Source: Inediibacterium massiliense
Lineage (GTDB): Bacteria; Bacillota; Clostridia; Peptostreptococcales; Thermotaleaceae
Length of the DNA: 24,000 bases
NCBI RefSeq assembly: GCF_001282725.1
Contig: NZ_LN876586.1
Coordinates: 97,464-121,463 of the forward strand
Reading direction: 5' to 3'
Below are positions 3,082-17,460 of this stretch, piece by piece (positions within the stretch are counted from its first letter, which is position 1; the number at the start of each line of letters is the position of its first letter). Made by a program: the position numbers and the translations under genes. Below the pieces are notes generated by a model, which searched no databases, had not been told where the DNA came from, and saw only the letters and a program-made list of their open reading frames with translations.

Positions 3082-3783
3082 ATGGAAATCAAAATATTAG
3101 TAGCAGATGATGAAGAAAATATAACAGATTCAATCGCTTATGTCCTAAAGCGTGAACAATATACAGTGTATAAAGCTTATGATGGGGAGGAAGCGGTAAG
3201 TCAGATACACAAGCTTCGTCCAGATTTATTGATTTTAGATATAATGATGCCAAAGCTTAATGGATATGAGGTTTGTAAAAAAATAGAAAATAATAACAAT
3301 ATAGGTATTATCATGCTTACAGCTAAAAGTGATTTGATAGATAAAGTATTAGGGCTTGAATTAGGTGCTGATGATTATATGACAAAACCATTTGATATGG
3401 TAGAGCTTCTTGCAAGAGTTAGATCTTTAAGTAGAAGAATAAAAAAAGGAAATAGCATAATAGAAAAAAGATCTGATGAAGTTTTAAAGCTACATGAAAT
3501 AAAAATATGTTTAAGAGAAAGAGTCGTTTATATAGAAAATGATATGATAGATTTAAAACCGAAAGAATTTGATCTTTTATCATTTCTTGTGGAAAATAAG
3601 GAAAAAACTTTTACAAGAGATGAGATCCTAGATAGAGTTTGGGGACAAGATTATTTTGGAGGAACAAGAACTATTGATATACATATCCAAAGAATTAGAA
3701 AAAAGATAGGAAAATATAGTGAAATCATAAAGACTGTACCTAAAATCGGATATAAAGTAGTGGAGAAAATTTATGAAAGCTAG
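3082..3783 (+). CDS. OmpR/PhoB-family response regulator (receiver plus winged-helix domain)
   Basis: Receiver motifs ILVADDEE, DLLILDIMMP and LTAK. The C-terminal trans_reg_C pattern reads LKPKEFDLLSFL ... RTIDIHIQRIRKKI ... IKTVPKIGYK. GGAGG lies 5 nt before the ATG. Confidence 0.92.
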   Translation: MEIKILVADDEENITDSIAYVLKREQYTVYKAYDGEEAVSQIHKLRPDLLILDIMMPKLNGYEVCKKIENNNNIGIIMLTAKSDLIDKVLGLELGADDYMTKPFDMVELLARVRSLSRRIKKGNSIIEKRSDEVLKLHEIKICLRERVVYIENDMIDLKPKEFDLLSFLVENKEKTFTRDEILDRVWGQDYFGGTRTIDIHIQRIRKKIGKYSEIIKTVPKIGYKVVEKIYES

Positions 3784-5239
3784 TATAAAAATAAAATGGG
3801 CTATATTTATTATTTTATTACTTATTTTTAATCTTTTTATCATAAGTTTTTTTATGTTAAAAGGAATAGAGAAAAATCAAAGACAATCTTATGAAGCATT
3901 CTTAAAAGACAATAGTAAAACTGCAAATCTTTATATAAGGGAGAAATTTCTTTCTAGTAATTATAAAGATTATGAAAAATTTTATACTGAAAATGCACAA
4001 GAAATTAGATTGAACTTAGGGAGAATATTAGATTTATATATTTCATTTTATGATATGAAAGGAAATTTAATATCAAGTATACACGATGATAGAGAAGATC
4101 AAAAAAAATTAAAAATAATGAAGGAAGCTTTAAATAATAAAATTGTATATGAAAAAAGTAATGAAAAGATATTGTATCTAGCTCCTGTGTATGATTTGAA
4201 AAAACAAATTGGTGTATTAAAATTTGAATATAATACAAAAAAAGAAAAAGATTTTTATAAAGAAATCAGACTGCTTTTCTTAGAAGTTGGAATGATTTCA
4301 ATTGTTGGAACTTACCTATTGGCACGTCTTTATTTTTCAAAAATTGTTCATAACATATTAGGACTTAAAAAATCTGTAAAAGAAATTGAAAAAGGAAATT
4401 ATGAAGGAGTAAAAATATTAGATGAAAAAGACGAGATAGGCGATTTAAGTAAAGGAATATCCTTTATGGCGAGTAAAATAAAAGAAAATATGAATGAGAT
4501 TCATGATGAAAAAGAAAAGCTACAGCTTGCAGTAGACAAGCTTCAAAGTTTAGAGAAGCAACAGAAAGAATTTATAGGAAACATCACTCATGAATTTAAA
4601 ACTCCACTAACTGTAATAAAAGCACAAATAGATTTGATGACCCTTTATCAAGATGATGAAGATATGGTATATAAATCAAAGGAAATCGCAGAAAAAGAAT
4701 TAAAAAGATTAGATAGTATGGTTGAAAATATACTTTACTTATCTAAACTTGAAAAGTATGATTTTGAAATAAAAAAAGAAAAGATAGATACACAAACACT
4801 TCTTGTAGATATATGCAATAGAATGAGTGGAAAGGCTTCTAAATTTGGTATAGAGATCATAAAAAATATCCAGTCTGCTTATATTTTTATGGATTCTGAA
4901 AGCTTTATGCAGATCTTTATTAATCTTATAGATAATGCAATCAAATATAATGTGAGCGGTGGAAAAATATATATAAGAAGCTATGTAAAGGATGATTTTA
5001 ACTATATTGAAGTTGAAGATACAGGAATCGGAATACCTAATGAACATAGAGAAAAAATATTTGAACCTTTTTATACAGTAGATAAAAATCGATCTAAAAA
5101 ATTTTCGGGAACAGGTTTAGGACTTTCTCTTGTCCACAATCTTGTAAAAAGACAAAAGGGACGGTTAACGATTTTAGATTGTAAAGTAGGAACTATTTTT
5201 CAAGTTGCATTTCCTATTTATAATAAAAAAATAATGTGA
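3773..5239 (+). CDS. Sensor histidine kinase (2 TM with an extracytoplasmic loop, HAMP, HisKA, HATPase_c)
   Basis: The gene overlaps the response-regulator gene by 11 nt. H-box ITHEFKTPLT, N-box LIDNAIKYN, G-boxes EDTGIGIP and GTGLGLSLV. TM helices lie near residues 9-30 and 165-187, flanking a loop of about 135 aa. Confidence 0.92.
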   Translation: MKASIKIKWAIFIILLLIFNLFIISFFMLKGIEKNQRQSYEAFLKDNSKTANLYIREKFLSSNYKDYEKFYTENAQEIRLNLGRILDLYISFYDMKGNLISSIHDDREDQKKLKIMKEALNNKIVYEKSNEKILYLAPVYDLKKQIGVLKFEYNTKKEKDFYKEIRLLFLEVGMISIVGTYLLARLYFSKIVHNILGLKKSVKEIEKGNYEGVKILDEKDEIGDLSKGISFMASKIKENMNEIHDEKEKLQLAVDKLQSLEKQQKEFIGNITHEFKTPLTVIKAQIDLMTLYQDDEDMVYKSKEIAEKELKRLDSMVENILYLSKLEKYDFEIKKEKIDTQTLLVDICNRMSGKASKFGIEIIKNIQSAYIFMDSESFMQIFINLIDNAIKYNVSGGKIYIRSYVKDDFNYIEVEDTGIGIPNEHREKIFEPFYTVDKNRSKKFSGTGLGLSLVHNLVKRQKGRLTILDCKVGTIFQVAFPIYNKKIM

Positions 5240-5303: not shown

Positions 5304-5382
5304 TATTCATAAATTTTTATAAAATTTTTTAAGAGAAAACCCGTACTTAGTGTGTAGTAATATATGAAAGGAGATGAATATT

Positions 5383-5928
5383 TTGGAATACTCACAAAGT
5401 GCACTTGTGGAAGGAATGAAGAATAAAGATGTAGCCGCTTATGAATATATGATAAGCAAATATACAAAAACAATATATTACTTAGCTTATACTATTTTAT
5501 CAGGGGCATTAAATAAGGAAGATATTGAGGAATGTGTATCAGATGTTTTTTTAGATGCCTGGATAAAAATTAATGAATTTGATGAAGAAAAAGGAAACTT
5601 TAGGACATGGCTTTTAATTTTGACAAAATATAAGGCACTTACATATAAAAGAAAGAAAAAGCTAACAAATATCATAAATATTGAGGAATTTGAAATTAAA
5701 GATAGTTACAATTTAGAGAAACAGTTTTTTCAAAGACAAGAGCAAGAGACGGTTATAAAAACCATCAATACTTTTAACAAGATAGATAAGGAAATATTTT
5801 TTAGAAGATATTTTTTTGGCGAAAAAATAAATGATTTGGCAAAAGCCTTTAATTTATCCAGATCAGCTATAGACAATAGGCTTTTAAGAGGAAGAATGGC
5901 TATAAAGGAGGAGTTAAATTATGAATGA
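5383..5928 (+). CDS. ECF-type (sigma-70 family, group 4) RNA polymerase sigma factor
   Basis: The region 2 pattern is IYYLAYTIL ... EDIEECVSDVFLDAWIKINEFD ... FRTWLLILTKYKALTYKRK. The region 4 HTH is LAKAFNLSRSAIDNRLLRGR. The track ATG at 5374 directly abuts GGAG, so the in-frame TTG at 5383 (9 nt after GGAG) is the likelier start. Confidence 0.85.
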   Translation: MEYSQSALVEGMKNKDVAAYEYMISKYTKTIYYLAYTILSGALNKEDIEECVSDVFLDAWIKINEFDEEKGNFRTWLLILTKYKALTYKRKKKLTNIINIEEFEIKDSYNLEKQFFQRQEQETVIKTINTFNKIDKEIFFRRYFFGEKINDLAKAFNLSRSAIDNRLLRGRMAIKEELNYE

Positions 5929-7252
5929 AGATAAATTAATCGAATTGTTAAGCAATTTGGATGATGATTTGGCTGAAAAAGAAATCGATAAATTATTAGA
6001 AGGGGTGGAAATTGATATGAATTCTATCAATAAAAAAGCGAATGAGAAGTTAAAAAATCATAATAAAAAAAATAATGGAAGAAAAAAAATAAAGTATGTG
6101 GCTGCTGCTTGTATAGGATTACTATGCATAACTACTGCATATGCAGATGATATTTCAGAAGCAATAAAAGTGTTCTTTAATAAAACTCCAGTATATTCTA
6201 CTATGGTTGATGGAGAGGCCTATTATTTAAAAGGAAGCTATTCTTTAAATGAAGATATTCAACTTAAAAGTTTAATGGTTTCAGAAGGAAAGTTAGAAAT
6301 GGAATTGACTTCAAGTTTAAGTGAAGATGAACTAGAGGAGATCAATATTATACCTAAGAAGGATCCTAATACAGTTTATGGTGTAGGTGGTTACTCAAAA
6401 GAAGGAGGAGCATATTCTTTTAGCTTTATGAATAAGAATGAAGAGAATTATAACATAAAACCTTTTAAAGATCTTGAAATTAAAATAGCAGGAAAATCTT
6501 ATGAAGTTTCATTAGAAGAAGCAAAAAGCTTAAATGGAAAAGATCAAATTTATACTAGCAATAATAATGTGAAAGGTGTAAATGTAGGTGCTACAAAGAT
6601 TGATGAAAATGGAAAATTAAATATTCAAGTCATTACAGCGTTTGAAGATGAAGCTTTAAAATTAGCAAGCCTTGGAAAACCAAGCAAAACAAAGGTAGTA
6701 TGTACAACAGAAAATACAGGAGAAGGAATCCTTGGTAGCGGTACAAGTAGTAAAACAGATGATATTTATGTAGTAGATGAAAAAAATAAGGAATACAAGC
6801 TTGAAATTCCAAAAGATTCAAAAGGTCGCCCTGTAACAATATTTGAAACAAATGCACCAAAGGATCAAAAATTAACATTAAAATTACCTGCTATGATTGC
6901 ATTATATGAAAAAACAATTGATTCATTTAAACTTAATATTCCTAAGGAAGGAGAAGAAGCTTTAAATAAAGAACTTGATTTTAATATCCAAAAGGCTGTT
7001 ATTAAAAACATTAAAAGAACATCAAAAACATCTGCTAAGTTAGAAATAGAGTTAAATACTGGTGGAGATGAAAGTGTAGATATAAGATCTTTTGATTTTT
7101 ATAGTCCTGATGTGAAAAAAATATCTTCTGAATTTAAAGGTGATCAAGGGGTTATCACTTTAGAGTTTGATGAAAATATGGATACTACCGACATAGAGAT
7201 ATCTTATCCTGAATTTGTAATGAATGGAAATTGGTTAGTGGATATGAAGTAG
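5921..7252 (+). CDS. Putative anti-sigma factor: single-pass membrane protein with a large extracytoplasmic domain
   Basis: The start overlaps the sigma gene stop (ATGAATGA) and is preceded by GGAGGAG. It has a short cytoplasmic N-terminus, one TM helix (YVAAACIGLLCITTAYA) and an external domain of about 365 aa. The role is inferred from position and topology only. Confidence 0.55.
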   Translation: MNEDKLIELLSNLDDDLAEKEIDKLLEGVEIDMNSINKKANEKLKNHNKKNNGRKKIKYVAAACIGLLCITTAYADDISEAIKVFFNKTPVYSTMVDGEAYYLKGSYSLNEDIQLKSLMVSEGKLEMELTSSLSEDELEEINIIPKKDPNTVYGVGGYSKEGGAYSFSFMNKNEENYNIKPFKDLEIKIAGKSYEVSLEEAKSLNGKDQIYTSNNNVKGVNVGATKIDENGKLNIQVITAFEDEALKLASLGKPSKTKVVCTTENTGEGILGSGTSSKTDDIYVVDEKNKEYKLEIPKDSKGRPVTIFETNAPKDQKLTLKLPAMIALYEKTIDSFKLNIPKEGEEALNKELDFNIQKAVIKNIKRTSKTSAKLEIELNTGGDESVDIRSFDFYSPDVKKISSEFKGDQGVITLEFDENMDTTDIEISYPEFVMNGNWLVDMK

Positions 7253-7264
7253 AGGTATAGGATA

Positions 7265-7310
7265 CAAACAACAATTCTTATGAGAACATGAGGATTGTTG
7301 TTTGAGGTTT
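7265..7310 (+). terminator. Rho-independent terminator after the sigma/anti-sigma operon
   Basis: A 14-bp stem pairs CAAACAACAATTCT with AGGATTGTTGTTTG (one G-U pair), followed by AGGTTTTATT. Confidence 0.65.
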
Positions 7311-7399
7311 TATTAGAATGTTTCACGTTTAAATTTATTCATTTTACGATAAAAATATTTATACATACTTCAATTTGAGTATGGATATTGACGTTTCGC

Positions 7400-7438
7400 T
7401 GATTTAGGGTTGTTTAAATTGATTTTTAATATTAAAAT
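7400..7438 (+). promoter_or_regulatory. Candidate agrBD promoter with degenerate LytTR-type boxes (-35 TTGTTT 7410-7415, -10 TAAAAT 7433-7438, 17-nt spacer)
   Basis: TGATTTAGGGTTGTTTAAATTGATTTTTAATATTAAAAT aligns with the minus-strand repeat module ACAGTTAGGGACGGTTAATTGTTTTTAATCATTATAAT from 10945-10982. About 28 of 38 columns are identical, with three 1-nt gaps. Confidence 0.4.
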
Positions 7439-7469
7439 AACAAAATGAGTAAATTTTATTTGTTAGCAG

Positions 7470-8069
7470 GTGTATTTATTGAACAAAATAAGTAAAAAAA
7501 TAATTGACTGGATGAAAAACTATATAGATCATCCTTCAGAAGAAGAAATAGAAATAGCAGAATATGGGATAACTTCTTTTTTAATTAATATCTATAAAAT
7601 ACCTATATTCTTTTTGATAGCTTATTTATTGGGTATTTTGAAATATTATATGCTCACTACCTTTTTATTTTCTATTATAAAGATGCATAGTTGGGGAATA
7701 CATATGCGTAGTGGATTTACTTGCATATTAGCAACTTTAGTTTCATTTGTTTTAATTATATATATATCAATATTTTTTAATATATGTATATTTATAAAAT
7801 TACTATTATCCACCATATCTTTATATTTTTTATATAAATATGCTCCAGCAGATACAGAAGAACGACCGTGCTTAAATGAAAATATTAGAAAAAAGTTTAA
7901 AAAAAGATCTATTATAATTGGTATGATATATGTAATTTGCTCATTTGCATATCCAAGTCAAATAGTTTCTAATATTTTTATACTTATATTATTTTTGCAA
8001 ACTATTTGTATTTTACCTTTTACATATAATGTCTTTCATAGGAGGTATAACAATTATGAATATTACTAA
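7470..8069 (+). CDS. agrB: AgrB-family membrane peptidase (autoinducing-peptide processing enzyme)
   Basis: This is a polytopic membrane protein of about 195 aa with the AgrB-type pattern SWGIHMRSGFTC. The His-x6-Cys spacing matches the catalytic H77/C84 pair of S. aureus AgrB. The start is GTG at 7470 or, after the AGGTG motif, TTG at 7479. A small agrD-like ORF follows immediately. Confidence 0.85.
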   Translation: MYLLNKISKKIIDWMKNYIDHPSEEEIEIAEYGITSFLINIYKIPIFFLIAYLLGILKYYMLTTFLFSIIKMHSWGIHMRSGFTCILATLVSFVLIIYISIFFNICIFIKLLLSTISLYFLYKYAPADTEERPCLNENIRKKFKKRSIIIGMIYVICSFAYPSQIVSNIFILILFLQTICILPFTYNVFHRRYNNYEYY

Positions 8070-8193
8070 CAAAGTATTAAAAACAATAGCAAAGGCAATT
8101 TTTAGTATGGCTTTTCTTATTAGTTTTTTACCTTGTTCTTTTGCTACTGGATTTGAAGAAATAAAAGCTCCTGATTCAATTATAAAAAGATAA
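8056..8193 (+). CDS. agrD: AgrD-like autoinducing peptide precursor (45 aa), not in the ORF track
   Basis: GGAGG at 8041-8045 precedes the ATG at 8056, which overlaps the agrB 3' end by 14 nt. Translation: MNITNKVLKTIAKAIFSMAFLISFLPCSFATGFEEIKAPDSIIKR. It has an amphipathic or hydrophobic leader, one Cys followed by 4 residues (CSFAT, a candidate 5-membered thiolactone ring) and then an acidic, Pro-containing tail (GFEEIKAP), like the AgrB recognition tails of staphylococcal and clostridial AgrD. Confidence 0.75.
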   Translation: MNITNKVLKTIAKAIFSMAFLISFLPCSFATGFEEIKAPDSIIKR

Positions 8194-8221
8194 ACTATTT
8201 TAAATAGTTTATCTTTTTATA
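8181..8221. terminator. Bidirectional intrinsic terminator: perfect 20-bp inverted repeat shared by the convergent agrD and agrC ends
   Basis: TATAAAAAGATAAACTATTT (8181-8200) and AAATAGTTTATCTTTTTATA (8202-8221) are exact reverse complements around nt 8201. The inner 13-bp stem is flanked by an A5 tract and a T5 tract, so it can terminate transcription in both directions. Confidence 0.75.
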
Positions 8222-9495
8222 ATTAATTCAATATGAAATAAATGATCTTCGATAAATGTATTTAGGTCTATATTTTTATATTTTTTCTCTTGAAATTCTT
8301 TTACTATACTTAAACCAAGGCCACTATGATCAACTTTATTTGAATACCCATCTTCAAATAGCTTGTGTAGTTTAGGCTTTTCTTTATAAGAATTTGAAAT
8401 AATGATGTAAATTTCATTTACATCATTGATTATTCCCAAATTAATAGTCTTGTCATTAGATTCTAAACTTGCTTCTATAGCATTATCTATTAATATTCCC
8501 AAAATTCTACAAATATCAATCTGCTTTATTACAAAATCTTCTATTTCATTTAAAATATTTAAATTGAAATAAATTCCATTATATATAATTTCTGAGATTT
8601 TAATGCTGAGTAATCCTTTAACAGGGATATCGTTTATATTGGCTAAATGATACATATTATTATGATTTATTTTATAATTTTTTAAAATTTGTTTATAAAA
8701 ATACTCTTTTAATCCTTGTATATCTTCAGTTTGTAGATATCCTTCTATAGTTTTGAGAATATTATTAAAATCATGTTTATACTTTTTTGTATTTTCAAGA
8801 GATTTTTCAATAATATTGCTATATATTTCTAAATGTTTTTTTTCTATTCTTTCAATATGTAACCTATTCAAAATAAAAAATATTATAAAGTGTACAATAA
8901 GAATGCAACTAAATATTGTAATTAATATAAAAAAATATTCATTTAATTTCTGACTATATAAATTTAAAAAAATCAATGTAATTACATAACTTATAATTAT
9001 AAAAATGCAATACATAAAAACTGCCAATTTGTCTTCTTTAGTTAAATAGTTACTAAAATTTACGAGGTTCAATTTTGATAGAAGATAAGAAATACTTATA
9101 AAGCAAGTTATTAAAGATAGATTTAATACAATCATGATATATATTTGGTTATTAAAATAATTCATGATCTTTAATTTATAAATAAGTAGATATCCCATAA
9201 TATTATCACTAAAAATAAAGACTATAAAAGTTAATATAAAATAATTTAAAAATAAAACATTTTTATTTGAATATATTTTATATGCTGAGAGCATAAAGAC
9301 AACATAATAAATTCCTAGTTGTATAGCTGTATTTTTTATATAAAAGGCTAGAAGTAATCGAAAAAATGAAATAGCTATAATGAAAAGTATTTCTTTTAAT
9401 TTACTAATTTTATAATTTCCAAGTCTTTTCAATATATATGTATAAGAATACATGACAAAAAAATTAGATGTAAAGTTTAATAAGGAATTATACAA
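8209..9495 (-). CDS. agrC: AgrC-like (HPK10 family) quorum-sensing sensor histidine kinase
   Basis: The N-terminal half is polytopic, with about 6 TM helices. H-box KHDFNNILKTIEGYL, N-box LIDNAIEAS and G-box HSGLGLSIV are typical of AgrC/ComD/PlnB-type kinases. It has a TTG start and overlaps the upstream LytTR ORF by 8 nt. Confidence 0.85.
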   Translation of the reverse strand: MYNSLLNFTSNFFVMYSYTYILKRLGNYKISKLKEILFIIAISFFRLLLAFYIKNTAIQLGIYYVVFMLSAYKIYSNKNVLFLNYFILTFIVFIFSDNIMGYLLIYKLKIMNYFNNQIYIMIVLNLSLITCFISISYLLSKLNLVNFSNYLTKEDKLAVFMYCIFIIISYVITLIFLNLYSQKLNEYFFILITIFSCILIVHFIIFFILNRLHIERIEKKHLEIYSNIIEKSLENTKKYKHDFNNILKTIEGYLQTEDIQGLKEYFYKQILKNYKINHNNMYHLANINDIPVKGLLSIKISEIIYNGIYFNLNILNEIEDFVIKQIDICRILGILIDNAIEASLESNDKTINLGIINDVNEIYIIISNSYKEKPKLHKLFEDGYSNKVDHSGLGLSIVKEFQEKKYKNIDLNTFIEDHLFHIELIIKR

Positions 9496-9874
9496 TAGCA
9501 GTCAACCCCTTTAAACCACTCCTAGATAATAGACTTTTCTGTCCGTTTTTCATTAAAATATACAAATCATATGGATCTTTATTAATCATTTGAATATAAT
9601 CTGTATTAATTAAACAAGCTCTATGAGATTGATAAAATCTTTTATCTAGCACAGATGAAAGATCTTTAAGTTTTCCATAAAACTCTATCTGACTATTCAA
9701 AGTAGTTACTCTTATTTTATGATTGATTCCTGTCATTTGAAAGTCTATGATTTCATCAAAATTTAGAATATAAGTTCTACTCCCTTTTTGAATGGTTATG
9801 GACTTTTGGTCTTTTTCTATATCTTTTCTTTTGAAATTATTCAAAATAGAGCAAAAAAAGGGACAGTTAAACAT
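9488..9874 (-). CDS. agrA: AgrA-like LytTR DNA-binding domain only; receiver domain absent (probable 5'-truncated agrA remnant)
   Basis: QIEFYGKLKDLSSVLDKRFYQSHRACLIN closely parallels S. aureus AgrA QIEFYGNLKELSQLDDRFFRCHNSFVVN. The ORF has only 128 codons. An in-frame stop (plus-strand 9941-9943) lies 22 codons upstream of the ATG, with no alternative start between them. No Shine-Dalgarno motif precedes the ATG (GATTTATTATTCTTAATG). Confidence 0.65.
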   Translation of the reverse strand: MFNCPFFCSILNNFKRKDIEKDQKSITIQKGSRTYILNFDEIIDFQMTGINHKIRVTTLNSQIEFYGKLKDLSSVLDKRFYQSHRACLINTDYIQMINKDPYDLYILMKNGQKSLLSRSGLKGLTAIV

Positions 9875-9903
9875 TAAGAATAATAAATCATAAAATACAA
9901 AAA

Positions 9904-9929
9904 CTACTCCTAAACGAAGAAAGGAGTAG
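9904..9929. promoter_or_regulatory. Hairpin with a possible dual role: it sequesters the Y1-gene ribosome-binding site on plus-strand RNA, and it is terminator-like on minus-strand RNA
   Basis: An 8-bp stem pairs CTACTCCT (9904-9911) with AGGAGTAG (9922-9929) around a 10-nt loop. The 3' arm contains the AGGAG that serves the ATG at 9937. On the minus strand the hairpin is followed by TTTTTGTATTTT (plus-strand 9892-9903). Confidence 0.45.
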
Positions 9930-9936
9930 CTTTTAT

Positions 9937-10833
9937 ATGCCTAGAGCAGCACGAATAAAAAATGAAGAAGGAATTTATCATATTATGTGTCGAAGTATAA
10001 GTGAAGTTAATTTATTTTTAGAGGATCAAGATAAAATCAAATATTTTCAGTTGATTCAAAAATATAAAGAGAAGTTTCGATTCAAGGTATATGCATATTG
10101 TTTAATGGATAATCATGGACACCTAATTATAGATTGTAATGGAGTAGATATATCTAAAATTATGCATAGTATTAATTTTTGCTACGCTCAATATTTTAAT
10201 AGGAAATATAATAGACATGGACATTTATTTCAAGATAGATTCAAGAGCAAACTGATCAAGGATGAAAAATATTTGATTACATTATCTGCTTATATTCATA
10301 ATAATCCTAAGGATTTATCTGATTATAAATATCAAGTAGAAAGATATCAATTTTCTAGTTTAAATGATTATATAAAAGAAACAAATAGCTTTGAAATATT
10401 AGATACTTCTTTTCTAATTCAATTACTTAATTTAAATAATAAGAAAAATAAACGAGCATATATTGAATTTGTAAAAAAATGTGAAAGTGAAGATGATCCT
10501 ATTGATGTAGAATTTGAAAGTGTTGAAAATGTATATAAAAGTGAAAGAAAAATTCTTTCAAGGCATTATACAGGAGAACAAGTCATAGAAATAGTAGCTA
10601 AATATTTAGATATAGAGGAAAATAGAGTACATGTAAAATACAAAAGGCAATATGTAAAATTAAGAGCTATTAGTTGTTTTTTGATGAGTTGCTATTGTAA
10701 TATGAAGCAAAAAAATATATGCGAATTAATCGGAAATATTAGCCAAACTAGAGTGTCAAGTTTATCTATGATAGGAATGAAAATGGCGTTTGAAGAACAG
10801 AAATTATTAGATAAGTTTTTAAAAAGTGCTTAG
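9937..10833 (+). CDS. Y1 (HUH) transposase-like protein of the IS200/RayT (COG1943) type, fused to a DnaA-domain-IV-like HTH
   Basis: The N-terminal pattern is GIYHIMCRSISEVNLF ... YAYCLMDNHGHLII (HUH motif HGH) ... YFNRKYNRHGHLFQDRFKSKLI ... YIHNNP. The C-terminal 90 aa (RQYVKLRAISCFLMSCYCNMKQKNICELIGNISQTRVSSLSMIG) resemble the DnaA C-terminal DNA-binding fold. Confidence 0.8.
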   Translation: MPRAARIKNEEGIYHIMCRSISEVNLFLEDQDKIKYFQLIQKYKEKFRFKVYAYCLMDNHGHLIIDCNGVDISKIMHSINFCYAQYFNRKYNRHGHLFQDRFKSKLIKDEKYLITLSAYIHNNPKDLSDYKYQVERYQFSSLNDYIKETNSFEILDTSFLIQLLNLNNKKNKRAYIEFVKKCESEDDPIDVEFESVENVYKSERKILSRHYTGEQVIEIVAKYLDIEENRVHVKYKRQYVKLRAISCFLMSCYCNMKQKNICELIGNISQTRVSSLSMIGMKMAFEEQKLLDKFLKSA

Positions 10834-10908
10834 GGTCAAATAAATATCATATGAAATGAAGGGTTTATTTTGAGTGCTCAAAAACAAAATATTATCTAAT
10901 AAGATAGT

Positions 10909-10936
10909 CTTTTATCTAATGATAAAGGATTTTTTT
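10909..10936 (+). terminator. Rho-independent terminator after the Y1 transposase-like gene
   Basis: Stem CTTTTATC, loop TAAT, stem GATAAAGG (8 bp with one G-U pair), followed by A plus T7. Confidence 0.55.
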
Positions 10937-10944
10937 GTTGAAGA

Positions 10945-11077
10945 ATTATAATGATTAAAAACAATTAACCGTCCCTAACTGTACTATAATGATTAAAAAC
11001 AATTAACCGTCCCTAACTGTAAAAACAATTAACCGTCCCTAACTGTCACCTAACTGTCCCTAACTGTACCTAACTGT
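10945..11077 (-). repeat. Tandem repeat array carrying nine LytTR/AgrA-type boxes: 2 x 38 bp (37/38 identical), then a 26-bp partial unit, then 11-, 10- and 10-bp units
   Basis: The plus strand reads ATTATAATGATTAAAAACAATTAACCGTCCCTAACTGT, repeated with one mismatch. This is followed by AAAAACAATTAACCGTCCCTAACTGT, CACCTAACTGT, CCCTAACTGT and ACCTAACTGT. On the minus strand there are six exact ACAGTTAGG boxes and three ACGGTTAAT boxes. The two full units each end in a -10-like hexamer on the minus strand (TATAAT at 10950-10945, TATAGT at 10988-10983). Confidence 0.9.
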
Positions 11078-11123
11078 ATTCCTATATATAAGTTTACGTT
11101 ATAGATATATTATAAATCATAAT

Positions 11124-11152
11124 TTGAGATTATAATAAATGGGTGGTAATAT
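11124..11152 (+). promoter_or_regulatory. Candidate sigma-A promoter for the sulfite-reductase-like gene
   Basis: TTGAGA (11124-11129), a 17-nt spacer, then TGgTAATAT (extended -10, hexamer 11147-11152). It lies about 75 nt upstream of the ATG at 11226. Confidence 0.4.
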
Positions 11153-11225
11153 AAAAATACAATAAAAATATGAAGTTTATTATAGCTTTGAATATGATTT
11201 TATGAAAATATAAGGAGGCTTATAT

Positions 11226-12110
11226 ATGAAAGTTAAGTTGACTACTGAAGAAATTGCTAGGTTAAAAGGACAAGGATTTATTTTGCAAAGAGATCAACAA
11301 TATTTTGTATGCAGAGTGATTACAGTAGATGGAAATTTAAATGAAAAGGAAGCCAAAAAAGTTGCAGATATTGCAAAAAAATATGGTAAAGGATATATGA
11401 GTTTTACAATGAGATTGACAGTTGAAATTCCGGGGATAGAGTATGAAAATATTGAAAAGGTTAAAGAAGAATTAAAAGAAGTGGGACTGTACTCAGGAGG
11501 AACAGGAGCAAGAGTAAGGCCTATCGTAGCTTGTAAGGGGACAGTCTGTAAATTCGGTCTGCTAGATACTCAGAATTTGAGCCGTAAAATTCATGAAAGA
11601 TTTTATTTAGGATGGTATGATGTAGCTCTTCCTCATAAATTTAAAATATGTGTGGGAGGCTGTCCAAATAATTGTGCAAAGCCTGATTTGAATGATATTG
11701 GAATCATGGGCCAGAAAAAACCTCAGGTTGATTTAGATTTGTGCAGAGGTTGTAAAAAATGTAATGTAGAAAGTGTCTGTAGAGTGGGGGCAGCAAAGGT
11801 AGTAGACGGGAAAATCAAAATAGATGCAGACAAATGCATTCATTGTGGATTGTGTATAGATGCATGTCATTTTAATGCTTTTCAAATTGGTCAAGAGGGA
11901 GTAAAGATTTTTATAGGAGGCATGTGGGGAAAAGAGCCTCATATAGGAGAATCATTTGATAAAATATTTACAGAGGAAGAAGCTATGGATATGATAGAAA
12001 AAATCATATTGTATTATAAAGAAAAGGGTATGCATAAAGAAAGATTTGGAAAAATGGTTCAAAGAATAGGTTTTGAAAAAGTAGAAAAAGATTTATTGCA
12101 GGATCAATAA
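11226..12110 (+). CDS. Small nitrite/sulfite-reductase-family protein (siroheme/4Fe-4S domain) with an inserted 2x[4Fe-4S] ferredoxin module; AsrC/Dsr-like
   Basis: Cys clusters ACKGTVCKFG and CVGGCPNNCAKPDLNDIG match the SiR-type cluster/siroheme pattern. Ferredoxin motifs are CRGCKKCNVESVC and CIHCGLCIDAC. The RBS AAGGAGG lies 7 nt before the ATG. Confidence 0.75.
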   Translation: MKVKLTTEEIARLKGQGFILQRDQQYFVCRVITVDGNLNEKEAKKVADIAKKYGKGYMSFTMRLTVEIPGIEYENIEKVKEELKEVGLYSGGTGARVRPIVACKGTVCKFGLLDTQNLSRKIHERFYLGWYDVALPHKFKICVGGCPNNCAKPDLNDIGIMGQKKPQVDLDLCRGCKKCNVESVCRVGAAKVVDGKIKIDADKCIHCGLCIDACHFNAFQIGQEGVKIFIGGMWGKEPHIGESFDKIFTEEEAMDMIEKIILYYKEKGMHKERFGKMVQRIGFEKVEKDLLQDQ

Positions 12111-17370: not shown

Positions 17371-17460
17371 GGAGAGATGGCAGAGCGGTTGATTGTGCTC
17401 GACTCGAAATCGAGTTTACTAATTTTAGTAACGTGGGTTCAAATCCCACTCTCTCCGCCA
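17371..17460 (+). tRNA. tRNA-Ser (anticodon CGA), CCA encoded
   Basis: Hand-folded cloverleaf. Acceptor stem GGAGAGA/TCTCTCC with discriminator G. Anticodon stem CTCGA/TCGAG with loop CT-CGA-AA. Long variable arm TTACTA/TAGTAA (type II tRNA). T-arm GTGGG-TTCAAAT-CCCAC. Confidence 0.93.

What the first reader, a model, noticed from the sequence alone, without database searches (positions are those of the whole stretch)
10945..11077. Array of nine AgrA/LytTR-type operator boxes built from tandemly duplicated promoter-like modules
Seen in the sequence:
- Read on the minus strand, the repeat array contains six exact copies of ACAGTTAGG and three of ACGGTTAAT.
- Box 5' ends fall at 11077, 11067, 11057, 11046, 11036, 11020, 11010, 10982 and 10972. 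Neighbours are therefore 10-11 bp apart, and several alternate boxes are 20-21 bp apart.
- The two 38-bp units (37/38 identical) each end in a minus-strand -10-like hexamer, TATAAT or TATAGT, 13 nt after the proximal box.

Established knowledge:
- S. aureus AgrA binds direct repeats ACAGTTAAG / ACAGTTAGG separated by 12-13 bp at the P2 and P3 promoters.
- The general LytTR site is [TA][AC][CA]GTTN[AG][TG].
- ACAGTTAGG is therefore a literal AgrA box, and an agr locus with an AgrA-like LytTR ORF lies 1 kb away.

Unusual points:
- There are nine boxes, all in one orientation.
- Spacing is about one helical turn rather than the canonical two-turn pairs.
- A whole promoter module has been duplicated.

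Inference:
- This looks like an amplified quorum-sensing-responsive promoter region firing on the minus strand.
- An alternative is an iteron-like site for the DnaA-C-like HTH of the adjacent Y1 protein.
Basis: partly seen in the sequence, partly recalled or inferred. Interest (0 to 1): 0.85.

Follow-up and report, generated by a model that had tools for sequence, protein, structure and literature searches.

The report
Reiterated end-repeat of a TIRYT transposase-like gene
The nine "AgrA boxes" are tandem copies of the right-hand terminal repeat of a small transposon-like unit (a Y1 tyrosine-transposase gene with a DnaA-like DNA-binding tail), a gene class described in 2013, and they have no detectable connection to the neighbouring quorum-sensing genes.

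Summary
All nine boxes sit at the stated coordinates on the minus strand. The two 38-bp modules and the TATAAT/TATAGT hexamers are also there.

The AgrA reading does not hold. The adjacent gene (9937-10833) encodes a RAYT-like Y1/HUH protein fused to a DnaA-domain-IV-like HTH. This gene class is known as a TIRYT, and the gene plus its repeats as a "TIRtron" (Di Nocera 2013; subclass 2.1 of Quentin 2018).

In 76 related loci from many Clostridia, the gene is flanked by inverted copies of GGGAC[A/G]GTTAA:
- upstream on the gene strand, 51/76 loci;
- downstream on the opposite strand, 50/76 loci;
- never inside the gene.

None of the 79 loci contains an agrB, agrC or LytTR gene.

Homology between the window and three Anaerophilus copies starts sharply at 9860 and ends sharply at 10975. 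The innermost box is therefore the right terminus of a 1.1-kb unit. The other eight boxes (10976-11077) are nested reiterations of that tip. "ACAGTTAGG" is ACAGTTA plus the GG of the next unit.

Similar tip "stutters" recur in other family members.

Verdict: a new member of a known kind, with low to moderate interest.

The parts
9860..9874 (+). Left terminal repeat tip of the unit, GGGACAGTTAA followed by ACAT. Homology to paralogous and orthologous units begins exactly here.
   Evidence: motif hit at 9860 on the + strand. (alignment A2: conservation starts at this motif and the flanks to the left are unrelated). (information content jumps at G|GGACRGTTaa).
9868..9896 (+). Weak sigma-70-like promoter match (TAAACA-17-TAAAAT) inside the left end. 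It may be the promoter of the Y1 gene.
   Evidence: 9 of 12 matches. This is a consensus match only and is not above shuffle expectation.
9904..9929 (+). 5'-UTR hairpin CTACTCCT...AGGAGTAG that pairs the ribosome-binding site. It resembles IS200-type translational sequestration.
   Evidence: z = -3.9, 0 of 200 shuffles fold as well. The hairpin is conserved in the Anaerophilus copies.
9937..10833 (+). TIRYT gene: a 298-aa RAYT-like Y1/HUH domain (H60-G-H62, Y119 in SAYIHNNP) plus a C-terminal DnaA-domain-IV-like HTH.
   Evidence: Y1_Tnp 4e-17; Bac_DnaA_C 2.6e-4, below the Pfam gathering score. (REP_Tyr_transpos 2e-15, below cut-off). (invariant residues). (Bac_DnaA_C in 12 of 24 members). (AF2 pLDDT 85.7; Foldseek top hit 4ER8 RAYT-REP; C-terminal domain matches 3PVP and 1J1V DnaA-DNA complexes, rmsd 2.4-2.7 A).
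10893..10937 (+). Two small hairpins followed by a T-run. This is the likely intrinsic terminator of the Y1 gene. The second stem is conserved among relatives while its loop varies.
   Evidence: fold; weak z = -1.5. (conserved stem, variable loop in L002-L004). The strict terminator scan found none because the stems are AT-rich.
10945..10975 (-). Basal right terminal repeat, read on the minus strand as GGGACGGTTAATTGTTTTTAATCATTATAAT. It is the inverted counterpart of the left end. Homology to related units ends at 10975.
   Evidence: A2: conservation ends at ...AATTAACCGTCCC. (inward-facing orientation, conserved 11-mer). (left/right comparison).
10976..11077 (-). Reiterated copies of the right tip, lying outside the basal unit. 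From proximal to distal they are: a variant tip (GTACAGTTA), a second full 38-bp module, a 26-bp truncated module, and four 10-11-bp tip units (GGKACAGTTA). These are the remaining 'AgrA boxes'.
   Evidence: The modules are 100% identical although the orthologous elements are only about 80% identical, which implies recent duplication. Analogous tip stutters occur in L008, L017, L027, L030 and L031.

Best explanation
The array is the right-hand terminal inverted repeat (TIR) of a 'TIRtron', reiterated in tandem. A TIRtron is a roughly 1.1-kb unit (9860-10975 here) consisting of a TIRYT gene bracketed by inverted GGGAC[A/G]GTTAA tips.

Shown:
- The unit has sharp, conserved inverted termini.
- The innermost box is the true terminus.
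- The other boxes are nested duplications of the tip, with or without 16 or 28 nt of interior.
- Such reiterations recur sporadically in the family, with varied unit lengths.
- The protein has a RAYT-like HUH/Y1 fold plus a DnaA-domain-IV-like DNA-binding domain.

Inferred:
- The HTH domain recognises the tip motif and positions the HUH/Y1 nuclease to cut and rejoin DNA at the boundary.
- The extra tips arise as by-products of that cleavage and rejoining, or from replication slippage at the repeated tip. They then act as additional binding sites for the protein.
- The -10-like hexamers in the 38-bp modules are most simply the interior of the TIR. That interior mirrors the AATCATAAAAT segment inside the left end, where the gene's own promoter-like match lies.
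- The match to the AgrA 9-mer is coincidental.
For: - Orientation. GGAC[AG]GTT lies upstream on the gene strand (80 hits against 5 in the other orientation; 51/76 loci) and downstream on the opposite strand (63 against 5; 50/76 loci), with 0 hits inside genes. The outward-facing control is nearly empty.
- Sharp ends in the window. Homology boundaries fall at 9860 and 10975 against three Anaerophilus copies.
- Sharp ends in Fervidicella. Nine units of 1.21-1.23 kb have sharp ends, are 85-91% identical to each other, and show no target-site duplication.
- Conserved profile. G|GGACRGTTaa is conserved, with zero information content outside it.
- No agr link. None of the 79 loci has an agr or LytTR gene.
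- Synteny. The Anaerophilus locus has an array in the same place but with different distal units.
- Recurrent stutters. Tip reiterations occur in L008 (7 copies), L017, L022/23, L030 and L031.
- Protein.
- Literature. TIRYT genes are flanked by TIRs sharing GGGGWSAS, and those TIRs form dimers or clusters (PMC3733652). Subclass 2.1 carries Bac_DnaA_C/HTH tails (PMC6006769).
- Covariation. Recognition-helix residue 270 tracks the tip subtype: Leu with GTTCT in 14/14 loci, and Gln never with GTTCT.
Against: - No biochemical data exist for any TIRYT. Binding and cleavage are inferences.
- The helix/tip covariation is confounded by phylogeny. Fervidicella-type tips (GGGACATATAAG) share the Gln-type helix.
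- About a quarter of the loci lack the strict motif on one side.
- The tip does not resemble a DnaA box (PMC6006769).
- I could not scan the rest of the I. massiliense genome or its three paralogs. Genome-wide distribution in this organism is therefore untested.
- The 10-11-bp phasing is not general in the family. Spacings range from 10 to 160 bp, so the extra copies may have no function.
Confidence: 0.82

Rival explanations
1. AgrA/LytTR operator array. The boxes are binding sites for an AgrA-type regulator and form duplicated quorum-sensing-dependent promoters firing on the minus strand.
For: - ACAGTTAGG differs by one base from the published AgrA 9-mer ACAGTTAAG (PMC11039898).
- Some alternate boxes are 20-21 bp apart.
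- An agrB / AgrC-like / LytTR cluster lies within 1-3.5 kb.
- -10-like hexamers follow the proximal boxes.
Against: - The motif accompanies TIRYT genes in loci with no agr or LytTR genes.
- The syntenic Anaerophilus locus lacks agr but keeps an array, with different distal units.
- The conserved register is GGGACRGTTAA, not the 9-mer.
- The local LytTR ORF has no receiver domain.
- The array is separated from the agr genes by the Y1 gene and points antisense into that gene's 3' end.
- No such repeats lie upstream of agrB.
- The geometry is wrong: the proximal AgrA repeat is centred near -60 in S. aureus (PMC4227749).
- No promoter is called there.
Confidence: 0.03
2. Neutral slippage product. 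The basal tip is the functional TIR, but the eight extra copies are a hypervariable mini-satellite. They would be generated by replication slippage between near-identical 10-bp tips, with no involvement of the protein and no function.
For: - The modules are 100% identical, which points to recent events.
- Copy number and spacing are highly variable across the family, and most loci have a single copy per side.
- The single strands have no secondary structure.
Against: - Stutters in other members include 4-7 nt of unique flank plus the tip (L030, L031, L027). Simple slippage needs a pre-existing repeat to produce that.
- Reiteration is concentrated exactly at the termini of these units in many genera.
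Confidence: 0.3
3. Inward-facing antisense promoter modules. The TATAAT/TATAGT hexamers in the right-end modules drive a short antisense RNA, ending at the minus-strand T-run near 10880. This RNA would regulate the Y1 gene, as in other IS antisense systems. The duplication would increase its dosage.
For: - A -10-like hexamer lies at a similar distance from the tip in the three Anaerophilus copies: TACAAT, TTCAAT and TATAAT.
- A hairpin followed by a T-run exists on the minus strand as well.
Against: - There is no acceptable -35, and the scan makes no call.
- The region is about 80% A+T, so -10-like hexamers are common.
- No RNA family matches.
- No transcript data are available.
Confidence: 0.1
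4. Upstream regulatory array for the downstream sulfite-reductase-like gene (11226-12110, + strand).
For: The array ends 148 bp upstream of that gene's start codon.
Against: - The downstream gene differs in the syntenic Anaerophilus locus and in other family loci, while the motif stays with the Y1 gene.
- A separate promoter-like site lies between the array and the gene, at 11124-11152.
Confidence: 0.03

Closest known systems
TIRtron / TIRYT (TIR-associated tyrosine transposase; Di Nocera et al. 2013, PMC3733652), which is subclass 2.1 of TnpA(REP)-like Y1 proteins (Quentin et al. 2018, PMC6006769)
   Same: - The protein is a RAYT-like Y1/HUH enzyme with a C-terminal Bac_DnaA_C-type HTH.
- The gene is flanked by inverted repeats rather than hairpins.
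- The tip fits GGGGWSAS at 6-8 of 8 positions: AGGGACAG and AGGGACGG in the window, GGGGACAG and GGGGACGG in relatives.
- The TIRs can occur as dimers or clusters.
   Different: - This clostridial subgroup has a longer conserved tip, GGGACRGTTAA.
- The right tip in the window is reiterated nine-fold in direct orientation at 10-11-bp spacing. That places it at the extreme of the family: only L008 is comparable among 72 loci.
- I found no published description of this subgroup in the searchable library.
RAYT/REP-REPIN systems (E. coli TnpA-REP, PDB 4ER8; Nunvar 2010, Bertels & Rainey 2011, Ton-Hoang 2012)
   Same: - It is the best structural match for the N-terminal domain.
- The gene is bracketed by inverted copies of its cognate repeat.
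- Gene-less inverted doublets of the repeat occur nearby in some genomes.
- The syntenic position is retained between genera, which looks like domestication.
   Different: - The repeats are not palindromic hairpins (array z of about 0).
- There is no GTAG head.
- An extra dsDNA-type HTH domain is present.
- The NCBIfam RAYT model scores below its cut-off.
IS200/IS605 TnpA elements (IS608, ISDra2)
   Same: - The HUH/Y1 fold is shared.
- No target-site duplication is seen.
- A 5'-UTR hairpin sequesters the RBS.
- The unit is multi-copy in some genomes (Fervidicella).
   Different: - IS200/IS605 ends are subterminal hairpins in the same orientation, not inverted repeats.
- Those transposases have no HTH tail.
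- The copies here are 85-91% identical to each other, not near-identical.
S. aureus AgrA P2/P3 operators (LytTR direct repeats)
   Same: The 9-mer matches ACAGTTAAG at 8 of 9 positions, and some boxes are spaced at 20-21 bp.
   Different: The site shows no conservation with agr, is in the wrong register, has the wrong promoter geometry, and has no full-length AgrA nearby (PMC4227749).
DnaA-box clusters and plasmid iterons
   Same: Both are direct repeats of a roughly 10-bp site at about one helical turn, next to a gene whose product carries a DnaA-domain-IV-like DNA-binding fold.
   Different: - The sequence is unlike TTATNCACA.
- The protein has no AAA+ or replication-initiator domains.
- Phased spacing is not conserved in the family.

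Membership tests
TIRYT / TIRtron | Y1 HUH tyrosine-transposase domain of the RAYT type, with a histidine pair and a catalytic Tyr | tested here: met
   - Pfam Y1_Tnp at 4e-17.
- H60-G-H62 and Y119 are invariant in 24 homologs.
- The AF2 model's top Foldseek hit is 4ER8 RAYT-REP, E 4e-6, TMt 0.72.
- One deviation: the middle residue of 'HUH' is Gly.
TIRYT / TIRtron | Gene flanked by terminal inverted repeats rather than REP hairpins | tested here: met
   - Inverted GGGACRGTTAA lies at 9860 (+) and 10975 (-).
- The same arrangement is seen in 50-51 of 76 loci.
- Homology boundaries are sharp.
- The array has no single-strand structure.
TIRYT / TIRtron | TIR motif fitting GGGGWSAS | tested here: met
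   The window tips AGGGACAG and AGGGACGG match at 7/8 and 6/8. Relatives GGGGACAG (L009) and GGGGACGG (L003, L010) match at 8/8 and 7/8. The consensus is taken from PMC3733652.
TIRYT / TIRtron (subclass 2.1) | C-terminal HTH extension (Bac_DnaA_C, HTH_23 or HTH_28) | tested here: met
   - Bac_DnaA_C at 2.6e-4 in the window protein, below the gathering score.
- 12 of 24 homologs match, best 1.4e-6.
- The fold matches DnaA domain IV complexes 3PVP and 1J1V, TMt 0.73-0.74.
TIRYT / TIRtron | The protein binds and cleaves its TIRs | not testable with these tools
   The papers read report no biochemistry for any TIRYT (PMC3733652, PMC6006769). The only evidence here is indirect helix/tip covariation.
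AgrA/LytTR operator | Pair of 9-bp direct repeats with a 12-13-bp spacer matching the LytTR consensus | tested here: inconclusive
   The sequence matches (8/9 to ACAGTTAAG). Some start-to-start distances are 20-21 bp, but the dominant spacing is 10-11 bp.
AgrA/LytTR operator | Located upstream of an agr-controlled promoter, with the proximal repeat centred near -60 | tested here: not met
   - The array lies downstream of the Y1 gene, not in front of agrB or of the LytTR/AgrC operon.
- The proximal box is 13 nt from the -10-like hexamer.
- No promoter is called (PMC4227749).
AgrA/LytTR operator | Co-occurrence with a cognate full-length AgrA (receiver + LytTR) and agr genes across relatives | tested here: not met
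   The local LytTR ORF is 118-128 aa and covers AgrA model positions 137-232 only. No agrB, AgrC or LytTR homolog is found in the 79 loci carrying the motif.
REP/REPIN (RAYT-associated) | Short imperfect palindrome with a GTAG (or CGTC) head, highly abundant genome-wide | tested here: not met
   - There is no hairpin in the units and no GTAG.
- The reverse complement does contain CGTC, but without a palindrome.
- Only moderate dispersal is seen in the flanks of relatives: 66 'far' hits in about 340 kb, many of them inverted doublets.
- Genome-wide abundance in I. massiliense was not testable.

The most novel reading that the evidence does not exclude
The tip reiterations are molecular scars of in-vivo TIRYT activity. 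In this reading the DnaA-domain-IV-like tail reads the double-stranded GGGACRGTTAA tip, with residue 270 contacting positions +9/+10. Arrays of tips phased at one helical turn load several protomers next to the very AT-rich flank (11078-11225). This helps to expose single-stranded DNA for the HUH/Y1 nuclease. It would be an origin-like loading mechanism that lets a single-strand transposase act from double-stranded terminal repeats. It would also make this locus a natural substrate for the first TIRYT biochemistry.
Probability: 0.12. Interest if true: 0.6.

Novelty: new member of a known kind. Interest (0 to 1): 0.25.

Why it matters
The result removes a tempting false positive. A literal AgrA-box look-alike next to an agr locus turns out to be the end-repeat of a transposase-like gene.

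It also documents several features of a widespread clostridial branch of the poorly studied TIRYT/TIRtron class:
- a well-defined 11-bp inverted tip, GGGACRGTTAA;
- sharp unit boundaries;
- an RBS-sequestering leader hairpin;
- recurrent "stuttered" tips.

No TIRYT has been characterised biochemically. The tip definition, the tip arrays, and the residue-270 / tip-subtype covariation together give concrete substrates and mutants for testing how a Y1 enzyme with a DnaA-like DNA-binding domain recognises its ends.

The element also abuts a receiver-less LytTR ORF. It sits at a junction where the agr segment is present in this species and absent in a relative, which hints at TIRtron-associated rearrangement.

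Tried and rejected
- Paralogs in the same genome. P0004, P0006 and P0026 are not on record in the contig index. The species is also absent from the genome-contig hits. I therefore could not examine other I. massiliense copies or the genome-wide distribution of the motif.
- LytTR homolog search. It returned only the protein itself, so 5' truncation of an agrA gene could not be tested by comparison.
- Profile search against PDB sequences. It found nothing, so structure prediction and Foldseek were needed.
- Rfam. Nothing matched in the region; the only hit in the window is a tRNA at 17371.
- Single-strand folding of the array. It showed no structure, which rejects a REP-type hairpin reading.
- Array-specific 23-mer in metagenomes. 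It gave 0 hits.
- General phased-tip pattern in metagenomes. It gave 95 hits, none with a TIRYT gene. Several are eukaryotic subtelomeres or unrelated repeats. This scan was uninformative.
- Exact GGGACGGTTAA at 5158. It looked like a dispersed copy but lies in conserved HK coding sequence (QKGRLTIL) that is identical in Anaerophilus. I reject it as a repeat copy.
- Plasmid search. It found only distant relatives, at most 36% identity.
- Helix/tip covariation. The association is suggestive but phylogenetically confounded and has a counter-example. I do not count it as proof.

Full report
**Observation**

The minus strand of 10945-11077 reads:

ACAGTTAGGT ACAGTTAGGG ACAGTTAGGTG ACAGTTAGGG ACGGTTAATTGTTTTT ACAGTTAGGG ACGGTTAATTGTTTTTAATCATTATAGT ACAGTTAGGG ACGGTTAATTGTTTTTAATCATTATAAT

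Tandem Repeats Finder reports a 38-bp unit x2 at 100% identity, a 26-bp unit x2 at 100%, and a 10-bp unit x4.7. All six exact ACAGTTAGG copies in the 24-kb window lie here.

**Context**

The window is from Inediibacterium massiliense (P0001 at 100% identity).

| Coordinates | Strand | Feature |
|---|---|---|
| 7470-8069 | + | agrB |
| 8029-8193 | + | small ORF, possible AgrD |
| 8209-9495 | - | AgrC-like kinase |
| 9488-9874 | - | LytTR-only ORF |
| 9937-10833 | + | 298-aa Y1_Tnp protein with a Bac_DnaA_C-like tail |
| 10893-10937 | + | two small hairpins and a T-run |
| 10945-11077 | - | the array |
| 11226-12110 | + | sulfite-reductase-like gene |

**What the array belongs to**

The Y1 protein has hundreds of full-length relatives in Clostridia, often several per genome. 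I fetched 79 loci.

The motif GGAC[AG]GTT is distributed around the gene as follows:
- In the 300 bp upstream, there are 80 hits on the gene strand and 5 on the other strand (51 of 76 loci).
- In the 400 bp downstream, there are 63 hits on the opposite strand and 5 on the gene strand (50 of 76 loci).
- There are no hits inside the genes.

A position profile built on the innermost copies shows no information outside the motif. It then rises sharply over G|GGAC[G/A]GTTaa on both sides. The gene is thus bracketed by inverted copies of an 11-mer.

In the window, the left copy is at 9860-9870 and the innermost right copy ends at 10975. Aligned with three Anaerophilus nitritogenes copies (about 80% nucleotide identity), homology starts exactly at 9860 and stops exactly at 10975. 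The flanks are unrelated.

In Fervidicella metallireducens, nine units of 1209-1226 bp have equally sharp GGGACA...TGTCCC ends. They are 85-91% identical to each other and show no target-site duplication.

The innermost 'box' is therefore the right terminus of a discrete 1.1-kb unit. The remaining boxes (10976-11077) are reiterations of that terminus.

**No link to agr**

- tblastn of the window's AgrB, AgrC-like and LytTR proteins against all 79 loci gives no hit.
- One Anaerophilus locus (L001/L003) is syntenic with the window: an OmpR-type RR/HK pair and a sigma-like gene on the left, TRAP-transporter genes on the right. It carries the Y1 gene in the same place and has no agr genes. It still has an array after the Y1 gene: GGGTTTGGGGACGGTTAATA x2, preceded by G-rich 8-10-bp units. 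Only GGGACGGTTAA is shared with the window.
- The local LytTR ORF matches only positions 137-232 of the AgrA model and has no receiver domain.
- No LytTR-type repeat pair lies upstream of agrB.
- In S. aureus the promoter-proximal AgrA repeat is centred near -60 (PMC4227749). Here the proximal box would lie 13 nt from the -10-like hexamer, and the promoter scan calls nothing there.

The one-mismatch similarity to ACAGTTAAG (PMC11039898) is best explained as coincidence.

**The protein**

- H60-G-H62 and Y119 (SAYIHNNP) are invariant in 24 homologs.
- An AlphaFold model (pLDDT 85.7) matches best the E. coli RAYT bound to a REP hairpin (4ER8), and then the IS608 and ISDra2 transposases.
- Its C-terminal domain superposes on DnaA domain IV-DNA complexes (3PVP, 1J1V; rmsd 2.4-2.7 A).
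- Bac_DnaA_C is detected in 12 of 24 homologs.

**Known class**

This is the class called TIRYT, with the gene plus its repeats called a 'TIRtron'. These are RAYT-like genes flanked by terminal inverted repeats that share GGGGWSAS, and the repeats can form dimers or clusters (PMC3733652). It corresponds to subclass 2.1 of Quentin et al., whose members carry Bac_DnaA_C, HTH_23 or HTH_28 tails (PMC6006769). The tips here fit GGGGWSAS at 6-8 of 8 positions. Neither paper reports biochemistry for this class.

**The reiteration**

- Most loci have one tip per side.
- Two or more tips occur in roughly a quarter of loci. Three or more on one side occur in about 10 of 72.
- The window (4 strict, 9 relaxed copies) and L008 (7 copies) are the extremes.
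- Spacings range from 10 to 160 bp, so phasing at one helical turn is not a family property.
- Several members show short 'stutters' made of a few flank bases plus the tip, for example L030 ggcaaatGGGACATAggcaaatGGGACATATAC, and also L031 and L027.
- Many left ends are preceded by other short tandem repeats (L002, L017, L036).
- The window's modules are 100% identical although orthologous units have diverged by about 20%. The duplications are therefore recent.
- The array has no single-strand secondary structure (z of about 0), unlike REPs.

**Mechanism**

Shown: the unit anatomy, the inverted tips, the sharp ends, the recurrent reiteration of tips, and the protein fold.

Inferred:
- The HTH tail recognises the tip and positions the HUH/Y1 domain to cut and rejoin at the boundary.
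- Extra tips arise from that activity or from slippage, and can act as additional binding sites.

One indirect test was run. The residue aligned with DnaA H434 (window Q270) co-varies with the tip subtype. Leu goes with GTTCT in 14 of 14 loci. Gln goes with GTTAA or GTTCA and never with GTTCT. This is confounded by phylogeny, and the Fervidicella tips (GGGACATATAAG) share the Gln helix, so it is suggestive only.

The -10-like hexamers in the modules correspond to the TIR interior, which mirrors the AATCATAAAAT stretch inside the left end. Similar hexamers occur in the Anaerophilus right ends. An inward antisense promoter is therefore possible but unsupported.

**Verdict**

The AgrA interpretation is rejected. 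The feature is a new, unusually reiterated member of a known kind. Interest is low to moderate, mainly as a substrate for the first biochemical study of TIRYTs.

Noticed in passing
window 9488-9874 (-), junction at 9859/9860: The LytTR ORF has no receiver domain; it matches AgrA model positions 137-232 only. Its first five codons (ATG TTT AAC TGT CCC) lie inside the left tip of the TIRtron, and NCBI annotates a TTG start at 9844 instead. No minus-strand ORF of 40 aa or more exists between 9875 and 11732. This could be a 5'-truncated agrA whose breakpoint is the element's tip, or a genuine stand-alone LytTR protein.
   Followed up: partly
window 5929-9859 versus L001 3898-4001: The 3.9-kb segment holding orf443, agrB, the small ORF, the AgrC-like kinase and the LytTR ORF is absent from the syntenic Anaerophilus locus. 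There the sigma-factor-like gene is followed directly by the TIRtron. The genes to the right of the element also differ: sulfite-reductase-like here, a 409-aa ORF there. The TIRtron sits at a junction of variable gene content.
   Followed up: partly
window 5158-5168 (+): An exact GGGACGGTTAA lies inside the OmpR-partner histidine-kinase gene (3773-5239). It encodes ...QKGRLTIL... and is identical in the Anaerophilus ortholog. It is therefore conserved coding sequence, not a dispersed repeat. The coincidence with the tip motif is unexplained.
   Followed up: yes
window 9904-9929 (+); also L002-L004 and the Fervidicella loci: A conserved 5'-UTR hairpin pairs the ribosome-binding site of the TIRYT gene (z = -3.9). 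It is reminiscent of IS200 translational control. The Fervidicella copies have a longer version.
   Followed up: partly
window about 10860-10885 (+); L002-L009, L016, L024: A conserved motif, AAGGGGTTATTTTGAGTGC (with variants), lies about 25 nt after the TIRYT stop codon in many genera. The whole 3' untranslated stretch up to the tip is about as conserved as the coding region. Its function is unknown.
   Followed up: no
alignment of 72 family proteins, window residue Q270: A predicted recognition-helix residue, equivalent to DnaA H434, co-varies with the tip subtype. Leu goes with GGGACRGTTCT in 14/14 loci. Gln goes with GTTAA or GTTCA. Fervidicella-type tips (GGGACATATAAG) are an exception.
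   Followed up: partly
L011 3151-3284; L015 6403-6450; L042 4831-4881; L053 2022-2059; L071 168-222 and 1425-1486: Gene-less inverted doublets of the tip motif, 40-85 bp apart, lie 1-3 kb from TIRYT genes. They resemble REPINs or MITEs and suggest non-autonomous derivatives in some genomes.
   Followed up: no
L117 and L121 (termite-gut contigs); L165 and L174: L117 and L121 carry 58-bp tandem modules, each beginning with GGGACAGTTAC. L165 and L174 carry 9-10-bp GGACAGTTA arrays in contigs of 54-57% GC. No recognisable TIRYT gene is within reach of any of them. They may be tip clusters of other subfamilies.
   Followed up: no
window 5374-5928 and 5921-7252 (+): An ECF-type sigma factor gene (Sigma70_r2/r4_2) overlaps by 8 nt a 443-aa ORF that has no Pfam match and a Lys-rich repetitive N-terminal region. 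The ORF may be its anti-sigma factor. A partial homolog of the 443-aa ORF (69% over 68 aa) lies 3 kb from another TIRYT gene, in L006.
   Followed up: no
window 8029-8193 (+): A 54-aa ORF overlaps the end of agrB. Its sequence is MSFIGGITIMNITNKVLKTIAKAIFSMAFLISFLPCSFATGFEEIKAPDSIIKR. It has no Pfam match, but it sits in the AgrD position and contains a Cys followed by a charged tail.
   Followed up: no
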